Assembly: GCF_013315695.1 (NCBI RefSeq)
Contig: NZ_CP054353.1
Strand: one strand, 5' to 3'
Length of the DNA stretch: 64,000 nt
DNA from: Escherichia coli
Lineage (GTDB): Bacteria; Pseudomonadota; Gammaproteobacteria; Enterobacterales; Enterobacteriaceae
Below, in pieces: positions 41,101 through 44,100 of the stretch; the first letter of the stretch is position 1; each line of letters begins with the position of its first letter. The position numbers are program-made.

Positions 41101-44100
41101 ATCGATCCGTGGCACATTCTACAAACGGGCGGTAAAGAGATTAAAAGCGCCATCCCGATGGGCTGTGTGCTGACGCTGCCAGCAACCGGTTCAGAATCCA
41201 ACGCCGGTGCGGTGATCTCCCGTAAAACCACAGGCGACAAGCAGGCATTCCATTCTGCCCATGTTCAACCCGTATTTGCCGTGCTCGATCCGGTTTATAC
41301 CTACACCCTGCCGCCGCGTCAGGTGGCTAACGGTGTAGTGGACGCTTTTGTACACACCGTGGAACAGTATGTTACTAAACCGGTTGATGCCAAAATTCAG
41401 GACCGTTTCGCAGAAGGCATTTTGTTGACGCTGATCGAAGATGGTCCGAAAGCCCTGAAAGAGCCAGAAAACTACGATGTGCGCGCCAACGTCATGTGGG
41501 CGGCGACGCAGGCGCTGAACGGTTTGATTGGCGCTGGCGTACCGCAGGACTGGGCAACGCATATGCTGGGCCACGAACTGACTGCGATGCACGGTCTGGA
41601 TCACGCGCAAACACTGGCTATCGTCCTGCCTGCACTGTGGAATGAAAAACGCGATACCAAGCGCGCTAAGCTGCTGCAATATGCTGAACGCGTCTGGAAC
41701 ATCACTGAAGGTTCCGACGATGAGCGTATTGACGCCGCGATTGCCGCAACCCGCAATTTCTTTGAGCAATTAGGCGTGCCTACCCACCTCTCCGACTACG
41801 GTCTGGACGGCAGCTCCATCCCGGCTTTGCTGAAAAAACTGGAAGAGCACGGCATGACCCAACTGGGCGAAAATCATGACATTACGCTGGATGTCAGCCG
41901 CCGTATATACGAAGCCGCCCGCTAAGCTTTTTACGCCTCAAACTTTCGTTTTCGGGCATTTCGTCCAGACTTAAGTTCACAACACCTCACCGGAGCCTGC
42001 TCCGGTGAGTTCATATAAAGGAGGAACGTATGGCTAATCCAACCGTTATTAAGCTACAGGATGGCAATGTCATGCCCCAGCTGGGACTGGGCGTCTGGCA
42101 AGCAAGTAATGAGGAAGTAATCACCGCCATTCAAAAAGCGTTAGAAGTGGGTTATCGCTCGATTGATACCGCCGCGGCCTATAAGAACGAAGAAGGTGTC
42201 GGCAAAGCCCTGAAAAATGCCTCAGTCAACAGAGAAGAACTGTTCATCACCACTAAGCTGTGGAACGACGACCACAAGCGCCCCCGCGAAGCCCTGCTCG
42301 ACAGCCTGAAAAAACTCCAGCTTGATTATATCGACCTCTATTTAATGCACTGGCCCGTTCCCGCTATCGACCATTATGTCGAAGCATGGAAGGGCATGAT
42401 CGAATTGCAAAAAGAGGGATTAATCAAAAGCATTGGCGTGTGCAACTTCCAGATCCATCACCTGCAACGCCTGATTGATGAAACTGGCGTGACGCCTGTG
42501 ATAAACCAGATCGAACTTCACCCGCTGATGCAACAACGCCAGCTACATGCCTGGAACGCGACACACAAAATACAGACCGAATCCTGGAGTCCATTAGCGC
42601 AAGGTGGGAAAGGCGTTTTCGATCAGAAAGTCATTCGCGATCTGGCAGATAAATACGGCAAAACACCTGCGCAGATTGTTATCCGCTGGCATCTGGATAG
42701 CGGCCTGGTGGTGATCCCGAAATCGGTCACACCTTCACGTATTGCCGAAAACTTTGATGTCTGGGATTTCCGTCTCGACAAAGACGAACTCGGCGAAATT
42801 GCAAAACTCGATCAGGGCAAGCGTCTCGGTCCCGATCCTGACCAGTTTGGCGGCTAACGGGCAAATTCTCCCGGTGGCGGTAATGTTCCGCTACCGGACT
42901 TTTCAGAAATCATTTATTCCCCTCGCGTCCCGCCCGTTGCTACTCTTCCTTGTTCAGGAATGCCAAATATAAGGACATCATCATGCAGAGCCGGAAGCTC
43001 TTAAAGGAACAACTCATCTACACCCGGGATAAACGCAACGGAGAGGTGAAAAACAGATGAAAATAATACTTCTGTTTTTAGCAGCCCTGGCAAGTTTTAC
43101 CGTACAGGCGCAGCCTCCTTCACAGACCGTAGAACAAACAGTCCGGCAGATTTATCAGAACTATAAATCAGATGCCAGTACGCCTTATTTTGGTGAAACC
43201 GGAGAGCGAGCGATAACTTCTGCGCGTATTCAACAGGCGCTTACCCTGAACGACAATCTTACACTACCGGGCAATATTGGCTGGCTGGATTATGATCCGG
43301 TTTGTGATTGTCAGGATTTTGGCGATCTGGTGTTAGAAAGCGTAGCGATAACCCAACCTGACGCCGATCATGCCGATGCCGTTGTGCGCTTTCGTATCTT
43401 TAAAGACGATAAAGAAAAGACCACGCAGACACTGAAAATGGTGGCGGAAAATGGTCGTTGGGTCATTGACGATATTGTCAGCAATCATGGCAGCGTCTTA
43501 CAAGCGGTTAATAGCGAGAATGAAAAAACGCTGGCCGCTATAGCTTCGTTGCAAAAAGAACAGCCGGAAGCCTTTGTTACCGAACTCTTTGAACATTTTG
43601 CTGATTATAGCTGGCCGTGGACGTGGGTGGTTTCCGACCCTTACCGCCAGGCGGTCAATGCCTTCTATAAAACCACCTTCAAGACGGCCAACAATCCCGA
43701 TGAAGATATGCAAATAGAACGGCAATTTATTTACGACAATCCGATCTGTTTTGGCGAAGAGTCGCTATTTTCACGCGTTGATGAAATTCGAGTCCTGGAG
43801 AAAACCGCCGATTCCGCCCGCATTCATGTTCGCTTTACGCTGACCAATGGCAACAACGAAGAGCAAGAACTGATTTTACAGCGGCGCGAAGGTAAGTGGG
43901 AAATCGCTGATTTTATCCGCCCGAACAGCGGCAGCCTACTTAAGCAGATTGAGGCAAAAACCGCCGCCAGATTAAAACAATGAGCTGAATTAAATAGCAA
44001 TTAGCCGGAACAATAAATAAAAGGGAACACTATATGAAAACGATTTTCACCGTGGGAGCTGTTGTTCTGGCAACCTGCTTGCTCAGTGGCTGCGTCAATG

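What the first reader, a model, noticed from the sequence alone, without database searches (positions are those of the whole stretch)
42983..43060. Shine-Dalgarno-preceded 25-codon ORF overlapping the yqhG start codon (ATGA)
In the dkgA-yqhG gap, an ATG at 42983 has AAGGA at 7-nt spacing and opens a frame encoding MQSRKLLKEQLIYTRDKRNGEVKNR. Its TGA stop overlaps the yqhG ATG, the classic arrangement for translational coupling or a regulatory leader peptide. The ORF track omits it because of its size. It may correspond to a small protein already annotated from ribosome profiling in K-12; I cannot confirm which one.
Basis: seen in the sequence. Interest (0 to 1): 0.45.

Follow-up and report, generated by a model that had tools for sequence, protein, structure and literature searches.

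The report
Leftover stub of a lost gene
The 25-codon reading frame in front of E. coli yqhG is real, but it is the leftover start and end of a 300-codon gene that relatives such as Escherichia albertii still carry there, so its ribosome-binding site and its overlap with the yqhG start are inherited, and the peptide shows no sign of a function.

Summary
ATG 42983 follows TAAGGA by 7 nt and opens 25 codons. The TGA at 43058-60 overlaps the yqhG ATG at 43057.

The frame is not an annotated K-12 small protein, and its peptide is absent from a 15-billion-protein collection.

Comparative loci explain it. E. albertii and two more distant enterobacterial lineages carry a 298-300-aa secreted-protein gene, here called X, between dkgA and yqhG. 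The stop of X overlaps the yqhG start as ATGA or TAATG. The sORF keeps these parts of X:
- its Shine-Dalgarno (SD) ribosome-binding sequence, start codon and first few codons (MQRW/MRRW against MQSR/MQSW/MRSW);
- its last ~10 codons (KRQDEVKNR* against KRNGEVKNR*);
- the ATGA overlap, in the same frame.

About 275 codons are gone. The stub is present in all five named E. coli and cryptic-clade lineages sampled, and no complete E. coli genome has X at this site.

Variation across 15 alleles is 8 synonymous to 23 nonsynonymous, the neutral ratio. The frame is never broken (neutral P about 0.05). Both ends are about 3.5 times more conserved than the middle.

Verdict: a vestigial gene stub, possibly still translated as an upstream ORF of yqhG. 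The peptide has no detectable function. A leader or coupling role is unproven, and yqhG has its own SD. Interest is low to moderate.

The parts
42030..42857 (+). dkgA coding sequence, the upstream neighbour
   Evidence: ORF list; RefSeq annotation of the identical record and of K-12.
42871..42903 (+). dkgA terminator-like hairpin: 10-bp stem 42871-80/42888-97, 7-nt loop, then ACUUUU. With only four U it is probably leaky.
   Evidence: Folding gives -20.5 kcal/mol, z -4.35, 0 of 200 shuffles as stable. It fails the consensus scan because the T-run is short. The stem is conserved in relatives.
42901..42913 (.). Conserved box TTTCAGAAATCAT. The minus strand reads ATTTCTGA (42903-42910), which fits the published BglJ-RcsB core wwTTCykA. 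It is a probable activator site of the former X-yqhG promoter, now the yqhG promoter.
   Evidence: Invariant in all 8 aligned taxa, including the distant L020. The motif and its inverted orientation at yqhG come from PMC3950696. Assigning the motif to these bases is my inference.
42970..42975 (+). Shine-Dalgarno TAAGGA of the sORF, inherited from gene X
   Evidence: Sequence. The same TATAAGGA lies 7 nt before the X start in L009, L016, L018 and L019, and L020 has GGGG at the homologous place.
42983..43060 (+). The 25-codon sORF (MQSRKLLKEQLIYTRDKRNGEVKNR*), the stub of gene X
   Evidence: Intact at the same length in 36 loci and 15 alleles.
42983..42997 (+). Stub segment derived from the 5' end of X (start codon plus about 4 codons)
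   Evidence: Window 42841-42996 aligns to L018 1003-1154 at 80-90% identity. ATG-CAG-AGC-CGG compares with ATG-C(A/G)G-CGC-TGG of X.
42998..43030 (+). Middle 33 nt of the stub, origin unknown and the most variable part
   Evidence: 7 of 33 identities in register against a background of 8.3 +/- 2.5; local alignments to X loci give p 0.25-0.98. Mean pairwise difference of the body is 0.136.
43031..43060 (+). Stub segment derived from the 3' end of X (last 9 codons plus the stop overlapping the yqhG start)
   Evidence: 25 of 30 identities to the X 3' ends of L018 and L019, 22 of 30 to E. albertii. P0052-54 end ...KRQDEVKNR.
43040..43046 (+). The SD of yqhG itself, GGAGAGG, 10 nt before its ATG and inside the stub
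   Evidence: Sequence. GAGG is invariant in all Escherichia-type alleles and in X-bearing loci, where it reads GGATGAGG. Segment diversity is 0.039.
43057..43983 (+). yqhG coding sequence (308 aa, signal peptide, DUF3828; PGAP name YqhG/Tai3 family)

Best explanation
The sORF is a vestigial stub of a lost gene.

Shown:
- The ancestral gene order was dkgA - X - yqhG, with X a 298-300-aa exported protein of unknown function.
- X was translated from the SD TATAAGGA and its stop overlapped the yqhG start.

Inferred by parsimony: on the branch leading to E. coli and its cryptic clades, about 825 nt inside X were lost. The loss left the X ribosome-binding site, start codon and first few codons joined in frame to its last ~10 codons and the ATGA overlap. 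Between them lie 33 nt of untraceable origin.

The features that look like a coupling design are therefore inherited, not evolved for a 25-residue product.

Shown: the peptide evolves neutrally and has no detectable function of its own.

Inferred, not shown:
- Transcripts that contain the SD are probably still translated through the stub. These would be read-through from dkgA past a four-U terminator, and yqhG-promoter transcripts if they start upstream of about 42965.
- Ribosomes terminating on the ATGA could reinitiate at yqhG as they did after X.
- This is at most an auxiliary route, because yqhG keeps its own SD.
For: Synteny and the overlap:
- dkgA-X-yqhG occurs in E. albertii (L016, L017), L009, L018, L019 and the distant L020. 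The stop of X overlaps the yqhG start as ATGA in L018, L019 and L020, and as TAATG in E. albertii.
- dkgA nucleotide identity to E. coli is 90.7%, 83.5% and 78% for these three outgroup levels, so X is the ancestral state.

Homology of the stub to X:
- 5' homology runs from dkgA through sORF nt 14 at 80-90% identity.
- 3' homology is 25 of 30 nt, and the protein ends are ...KRQDEVKNR* against ...KRNGEVKNR*.
- X is 903 nt in L018 and the stub is 78 nt. The difference is 825 nt, or 275 codons, so the frame is kept.

Distribution:
- No complete E. coli genome has X-like DNA above 80% identity. 129 of 5,426 hold only the 72-73% paralogue, which lies downstream of yqhH where its context was read.
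- 5,417 of 5,426 have the contiguous stub-type gap.

Selection:
- 31 variant types split 8 synonymous to 23 nonsynonymous, against a neutral expectation of about 25% synonymous.
- Window against E69: 11 of 25 residues differ, with 7, 4 and 5 changes at codon positions 1, 2 and 3. sORF dN is 0.233, against 0.009 for dkgA and 0.081 for yqhG.

No known family or annotation:
- The peptide is absent from the protein collection, the K-12 annotation, Pfam and Rfam.
Against: - The middle 33 nt cannot be traced to X, so the deletion end-points and the single-event scenario are not proven.
- The frame has stayed intact in every allele seen (0 stops, 0 start losses, 0 indels; neutral P about 0.05). The SD/start segment is about 3.5 times more conserved than the body (0.040 against 0.136). 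This may mean the stub is more than a dead relic.
- Translation has not been observed. The ribosome-profiling tables reachable here were truncated or silent.
- The yqhG transcription start, mapped by 5'-RACE, is given only in a figure that is not held.
Confidence: 0.72

Rival explanations
1. Exapted upstream ORF. The stub is kept open by selection because translating it, whatever the peptide, delivers ribosomes to the yqhG start or tunes their access to it. This would continue the ancestral X-yqhG coupling.
For: - The frame, start and ATGA are intact in 15 alleles and 36 loci spanning dkgA dS of about 0.45, with no indel. The neutral probability of no disruption is about 0.05.
- The SD/start segment (diversity 0.040) and the stop/yqhG-start segment (0.039) are far more conserved than the body (0.136).
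- The deletion kept the frame.
- Precedents exist: smORFs overlapping the 5' end of baxA, evgA, argF, pssA and accD were found by ribosome profiling and tested for effects on translation of the larger downstream gene (bioRxiv 10.1101/511675).
Against: - P of about 0.05 is weak and comes from few independent events.
- Conservation of the SD/start could reflect an overlapping core promoter or transcription start. The BglJ-RcsB box to TSS distances of 52-79 bp place the start at about 42958-42985.
- yqhG has its own conserved SD.
- E. albertii NBRC 107761 has yqhG without X or the stub.
- No structure sequesters the yqhG start significantly (z -0.36, no covariation).
Confidence: 0.18
2. Untranslated relic. 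The stub is only DNA within the yqhG promoter or 5' UTR. TATAAG (42968-73) serves as a -10 element, so yqhG mRNA starts at about 42980 and lacks the SD, and the ORF is never read in any meaningful amount.
For: - The yqhG promoter lies within this 199-bp gap and is almost silent without BglJ.
- Typical activator-site to TSS distances put the start near the SD or ATG.
- No profiling or tagging study reachable here lists the ORF.
Against: - E69-type alleles have TTTAAG, which loses the key A of a -10 element, yet they keep AAGG.
- In L020 the homologous bases are GGGG, which resembles an SD and not a -10.
- Read-through from dkgA past a 4-U terminator would carry the full SD and ORF.
- The consensus promoter scan finds nothing either way.
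Confidence: 0.3
3. Functional 25-residue small protein, acting through its amino-acid sequence.
For: - Good SD and ATG.
- The ORF is intact in all alleles.
- The last five residues, EVKNR, are nearly invariant. They overlie the yqhG SD and spacer, which explains that conservation.
Against: - The synonymous to nonsynonymous ratio equals the neutral expectation.
- Radical polymorphisms occur within E. coli: L11P, L11F, R18C and E21K.
- 11 of 25 residues differ in E69.
- There is no homologue, domain or annotation.
- The sequence is a junction of two gene ends.
Confidence: 0.04
4. Attenuation or arrest-type leader peptide that senses a metabolite or translation state to control yqhG.
For: Only its position: a short ORF directly upstream of a gene and overlapping it.
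Against: - No conserved codon run or arrest motif, and the peptide is variable.
- No terminator or alternative hairpins between the sORF and yqhG.
- Folding is not better than shuffles and shows no compensatory changes.
- No Rfam family.
Confidence: 0.03

Closest known systems
smORFs overlapping the 5' end of a larger gene in another frame (baxL-baxA, evgL-evgA, argL-argF, pssL-pssA, ORF33-accD; Weaver et al. 2019, bioRxiv 10.1101/511675)
   Same: A short SD-led ORF in the 5' leader whose end overlaps the start of the downstream gene in a different frame. Coupling or interference with downstream translation is a possible effect.
   Different: Those were detected by Onc112/retapamulin profiling; three were confirmed by tagging, and the set was tested for effects on the downstream gene. 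This one has no expression evidence, is not annotated, and has a demonstrable origin as the remnant of a larger gene.
Translationally coupled operon genes with an ATGA or TAATG stop/start overlap
   Same: The identical 4-nt overlap. In relatives it is literally such a pair, X-yqhG.
   Different: In E. coli the upstream partner is reduced to 25 codons with no selected product. The downstream gene has its own SD, so dependence on coupling is not indicated.
Pseudogene fragments that survive as small ORFs, for example K-12 YqhI (b4755), which overlaps the yghX pseudogene
   Same: A short ORF that begins at the original start of a disrupted larger gene.
   Different: YqhI was validated by epitope tagging (PMC6001520) and is annotated. 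It is a truncation, not a junction of the two gene ends, and it does not overlap a downstream start.
Classical leader peptides (trpL, pheL, mgtL type)
   Same: A short ORF upstream of a regulated gene.
   Different: No regulatory codons, no alternative RNA structures or attenuator, and no peptide conservation.

Membership tests
Gene remnant (stub of gene X) | Both ends homologous to an intact gene at the syntenic position in relatives | tested here: met
   The 5' block is 80-90% identical through sORF nt 14. The last 30 nt match at 25 of 30. The SD, ATG and stop/start overlap are the same.
Gene remnant (stub of gene X) | The intact gene is the ancestral state (present in outgroups) | tested here: met
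   dkgA-X-yqhG occurs in E. albertii, in L018/L019 and in L020, at dkgA identities of 90.7%, 83.5% and 78% to E. coli. The stub occurs in E. coli and in three cryptic-clade-type lineages.
Gene remnant (stub of gene X) | Relaxed selection on the remaining codons | tested here: met
   8 synonymous to 23 nonsynonymous variant types, matching the neutral expectation of about 25% synonymous. No third-position bias.
Annotated or validated E. coli K-12 small proteins | Annotated CDS in NC_000913.3, or the protein present in public collections | tested here: not met
   No feature lies between b3012 and b3013, although YqhI-type small proteins are annotated in the same record. The exact 25-aa and 36-aa sequences are not in the collection.
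Annotated or validated E. coli K-12 small proteins | Initiation-complex ribosome footprint or tagged product | not testable with these tools
   The Stringer 2021 table is truncated at 1.13 Mb. The Weaver and Meydan data are not held. The Nakahigashi, smORFer, PIRT-seq and acid-stress supplements are silent. The locus is nearly silent without BglJ.
Translationally coupled gene pair | Stop of the upstream ORF overlapping or abutting the downstream start | tested here: met
   ATGA at 43057-43060, conserved in all alleles.
Translationally coupled gene pair | Downstream initiation depends on upstream translation (weak or occluded own SD) | tested here: not met
   yqhG has the conserved GGAGAGG 10 nt upstream. 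The local fold has z -0.36 and no covariation. This is sequence-level evidence only and dependence was not measured.
Attenuator or arrest leader peptide | Conserved sensing codons or arrest motif, plus alternative RNA structures or a terminator before the gene | tested here: not met
   The peptide is variable. No terminator-like site and no significant structure. No Rfam match.

The most novel reading that the evidence does not exclude
The stub is not dead. After X was lost, selection kept its initiation site, open frame and ATGA junction for a span equal to most of the E. coli-E. albertii divergence. The reason would be that translating it sets yqhG output. That would be a traceable case of a leader or upstream ORF born from the two ends of a decayed operon gene.
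Probability: 0.18. Interest if true: 0.45.

Novelty: new member of a known kind. Interest (0 to 1): 0.25.

Why it matters
The result explains, without invoking a new regulator, why a textbook-looking SD plus ATG plus ATGA arrangement sits in front of yqhG. It also warns that motif-perfect small ORFs can be gene wreckage.

It provides a dated, sequence-traceable example for two questions in the small-protein field:
- how upstream ORFs arise;
- whether many translated short ORFs lack selection on their product, as Stringer et al. 2021 argue.

It also identifies an uncharacterised partner gene, X, that accompanies yqhG in relatives. yqhG has been linked to oxidative-stress resistance and virulence in uropathogenic E. 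coli (PMC6727828), so the loss of its ancestral partner may bear on its function.

Tried and rejected
- YqhI as the identity of this ORF: rejected. It lies at 3147597-3147740 between yghX and gpr.
- Ribosome-profiling look-ups. The Stringer 2021 supplement is stored only up to 1.13 Mb. The Weaver preprint has no held supplement, and the mBio, J Bacteriol and Mol Cell versions are not held. The PIRT-seq, smORFer, acid-stress Ribo-seq and tetracycline-TIS supplements contain nothing for this interval.
- Full-text search for the peptide or its coordinates: only unrelated number matches.
- TSS look-up: the dRNA-seq paper is not held. The 5'-RACE coordinate of PMC3950696 is only in a figure.
- Consensus promoter and terminator scans of the gap and of L018: nothing usable.
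- Rfam at E<=1: nothing.
- RNA structure as a regulatory element: not better than shuffles and no covariation.
- The genome-contig scan with YqhG gave only 4 loci because the peptide patterns were too strict. Diversity was recovered through protein search plus contig look-ups.
- Tracing the middle 33 nt to X or its flanks: no similarity.
- The longer 36-aa frame from TTG 42950: it has no SD, is not in any collection, and the TTG lies in the conserved promoter region. It was not pursued.
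Full report
**1. The observation**

The window around 42983 reads ...AAATATAAGGACATCATCATGCAGAGC....
- AAGGA occupies 42971-42975 (TAAGGA from 42970).
- Seven bases follow, then ATG at 42983.
- The frame runs for 25 codons (MQSRKLLKEQLIYTRDKRNGEVKNR) to TGA at 43058-43060.
- The A of that TGA's preceding ATG belongs to the yqhG start at 43057.
- The neighbours are dkgA (42030-42857) and yqhG (43057-43983), as annotated in the 100%-identical RefSeq record NZ_OZ547117.1 and in K-12.

The window is a non-K-12 E. coli. In K-12 the same ORF differs by two synonymous changes and T14I.

A shuffle test gauges chance. An ATG-ORF of at least 25 codons ending at a fixed ATGA arises in 7% of shuffled gaps, and with an SD-like motif in 0.7%. 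The overlap itself follows from the second yqhG codon being AAA. On motif grounds alone the arrangement is uncommon but not compelling.

**2. It is not a known small protein**

- NC_000913.3 has no feature between b3012 and b3013, although the same record carries validated small proteins such as YqhI.
- YqhI, the obvious name candidate, lies 10 kb away.
- PGAP records annotate nothing there.
- The exact 25-aa peptide and the 36-aa TTG-extended version, in both window and K-12 forms, are absent from a collection of about 15 billion proteins.
- Pfam and Rfam give nothing.
- No held paper prints the peptide.
- The ribosome-profiling tables I could reach were truncated before 3.16 Mb or silent.

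This silence is weak evidence. The yqhG promoter is nearly inactive without the BglJ-RcsB activator.

**3. What it is**

I searched for YqhG relatives and read their contigs. Locus L009 has an extra 286-aa gene between dkgA and yqhG. I call this gene X.

The X family:
- It is 298-300 aa long and has a signal peptide.
- It has no Pfam, NCBIfam or PDB match.
- It is annotated 'hypothetical protein' in E. albertii.

In E. albertii the gene order is yqhC-yqhD-dkgA-X-yqhG-(115 aa)-lpp-like-yqhH-ygiQ. Two Logan contigs (L018, L019) and a distant metagenome contig (L020) also show dkgA-X-yqhG. In L018, L019 and L020 the stop of X overlaps the yqhG start as ATGA. In E. albertii it is TAATG. L009's 286-aa version stops early within an A-run.

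The E. coli gap aligns with these loci at both ends:
- From dkgA through the sORF ATG and about 14 nt beyond, identity to L018 is 80-90%.
- This stretch includes the same TATAAGGA 7 nt before the same ATG, followed by CAG-AGC-CGG against C(A/G)G-CGC-TGG.
- The last 30 nt of the sORF match the last 30 nt of X at 25 of 30 in L018 and L019, and 22 of 30 in E. albertii.
- The proteins end ...KRQDEVKNR* (P0052-54) against ...KRNGEVKNR*.
- X is 903 nt in L018 and the stub 78 nt, so the 825-nt difference keeps the frame.
- The middle 33 nt (42998-43030) show no similarity to X or its flanks. The exact end-points are therefore unknown.

**4. Direction of change**

dkgA identity to E. coli is 90.7% for E. 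albertii, 83.5% for L018/L019 and 78% for L020. These three nested outgroup levels all carry X.

The stub is found in:
- E. coli;
- three species-level lineages: Escherichia sp. MOD1-EC7003, 'E. coli' E69, and an Escherichia sp. E4742-type contig;
- metagenome contigs of the same types.

Parsimony therefore makes X ancestral and the stub derived. The loss is nearly as old as the split from E. albertii.

In 5,426 complete E. coli genomes, 5,417 have the contiguous stub-type gap at 95-100% identity. None has X-like DNA above 80% identity. 129 carry only a 72-73% paralogue X', which sits downstream of yqhH in the loci read.

**5. Selection**

Thirty-six loci gave 15 distinct sORF alleles. All have 25 codons with the ATG and the ATGA intact and no indel.
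- The 31 variant types are 8 synonymous and 23 nonsynonymous.
- A neutral model (kappa 2) predicts 23% synonymous, 68% nonsynonymous, 5% stop and 4% start loss.
- The observed synonymous share of 26% is therefore the neutral one.
- Within E. coli there are radical polymorphisms: L11P, L11F, R18C and E21K.
- E69 differs at 11 of 25 residues, with changes spread 7, 4 and 5 over codon positions 1, 2 and 3.
- Window against E69: sORF dN is 0.233 and dS 0.345. dkgA dN is 0.009 and dS 0.44. yqhG dN is 0.081 and dS 0.76.

The peptide is not under purifying selection. Two things temper the 'dead relic' reading:
- No disruptive change was seen. The neutral probability is about 0.907^31, or roughly 0.05.
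- Diversity is low at the SD/start (0.040) and at the stop/yqhG SD/start (0.039), but high in the body (0.136).

The second point has an obvious cause at the 3' end, which holds the ribosome-binding site of yqhG. At the 5' end the cause could be continued use of the start site, or overlap with the core promoter.

**6. Transcription and mechanism**

A strong hairpin follows dkgA (-20.5 kcal/mol, z -4.35) but carries only four U. Some read-through carrying the complete SD and sORF is plausible.

The yqhG promoter lies inside this gap. It is activated by BglJ-RcsB and has a 5'-RACE-mapped start whose coordinate is only in a figure. The box TTTCAGAAATCAT (42901-42913) is invariant even in L020. 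Its minus strand fits the published core wwTTCykA in the inverted orientation reported for yqhG. Published site-to-start distances of 52-79 bp would put the start at about 42958-42985. That range straddles the SD and the ATG, so I cannot say whether promoter-derived mRNA contains the SD.

In L020 the bases homologous to AAGGA are GGGG. This favours an SD role over a -10 role in the ancestral operon.

There is no significant or covarying RNA structure between the sORF start and yqhG, and no terminator there. This argues against an attenuator.

yqhG keeps its own GGAGAGG 10 nt upstream in every allele. The E. albertii type strain has yqhG behind a transporter gene with neither X nor the stub. 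Coupling is therefore not indispensable.

My best reading:
- The stub is a vestige whose signals are inherited.
- It is probably translated at a low level whenever its SD is transcribed.
- Terminating ribosomes may reinitiate at yqhG as they did after X.
- The peptide does nothing.

**7. Comparison with known kinds**

In form it matches the smORFs that overlap the 5' ends of baxA, evgA, argF, pssA and accD, and ordinary ATGA-coupled operon pairs. In origin it resembles pseudogene fragments such as YqhI, which overlaps the yghX pseudogene.

It fails the tests for an annotated small protein and for an attenuator leader. It meets all three tests for a gene remnant.

It is a new, unannotated example of known kinds. 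Interest is low to moderate. The main value is the clean explanation and a possible case study of how an upstream ORF is born from gene decay.

Noticed in passing
L016:2501-3397, L018:1141-2043, L019:974-1873, L020:2314-3213 (absent from the window): An uncharacterised gene family X (298-300 aa, signal peptide, no Pfam, NCBIfam or PDB match) always sits immediately upstream of yqhG and overlaps it in E. albertii and two more distant enterobacterial lineages. Its N-terminus weakly resembles the DUF3828 part of YqhG (20% identity, E 2e-4).
   Followed up: partly
L012-L014:2501-3957; the window equivalent would lie between 44292 and 44332: 129 of 5,426 complete E. coli genomes carry a 72-73%-identical paralogue X' (305 aa). 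In the three loci read it sits with a 115-aa gene between yqhH and ygiQ. The window strain lacks it. This locus gains and loses such genes.
   Followed up: partly
window 43057-43983 (yqhG); L005, L008, L016, L018: YqhG evolves fast (dN 0.08-0.09 and dS 0.76 against cryptic clades, compared with dkgA dN 0.009-0.016). E. albertii L016 YqhG is 90% identical to L018 YqhG although their dkgA genes are only 83% identical, which suggests horizontal exchange of the X-yqhG module.
   Followed up: partly
L022:1400-2322 (E. coli O157:H7 strain 2149): yqhG is annotated as a frameshifted pseudogene in this O157:H7 genome, while the upstream 25-codon ORF is intact.
   Followed up: no
L026:948-1595 (E. coli strain 21310): yqhC-yqhD-dkgA are deleted. 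The junction ...GAAGATCAGG|ACATCATCATG places the yghB (DedA) frame in register with the sORF, so the annotated DedA protein ends at the ATGA overlapping yqhG.
   Followed up: partly
window 42901-42913: TTTCAGAAATCAT is invariant across all eight aligned taxa, including the most distant. The minus strand ATTTCTGA fits the BglJ-RcsB core motif. It is probably the activator site predicted but not mapped in PMC3950696.
   Followed up: partly
L007 (NZ_JAUFQN010000016.1, labelled Flavobacterium paronense): A 3.3-kb contig of a Flavobacterium assembly is K-12-identical across the aligned dkgA-yqhG gap and sORF. It is almost certainly contamination of that assembly.
   Followed up: no
L006:1-1200 (E. 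albertii NBRC 107761): In the E. albertii type strain, yqhG follows a membrane-transporter gene instead of dkgA-X. Only about 25 nt before the ATG look homologous to other loci by eye. An 8-codon ORF there also ends on the ATGA, which shows how easily that overlap arises.
   Followed up: partly
L027:1098-1241 (K-12 yqhI, b4755): The validated small protein YqhI overlaps the annotated yghX pseudogene on the same strand. It is a fragment of a decayed gene and a precedent for the origin inferred here.
   Followed up: no
P0017 (443 aa, E. coli assembly): A protein annotated as DkgA carries both the aldo-keto-reductase and DUF3828 domains. This implies a DkgA-YqhG fusion in one assembly, through a deletion or a sequencing error across this same gap.
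   Followed up: no
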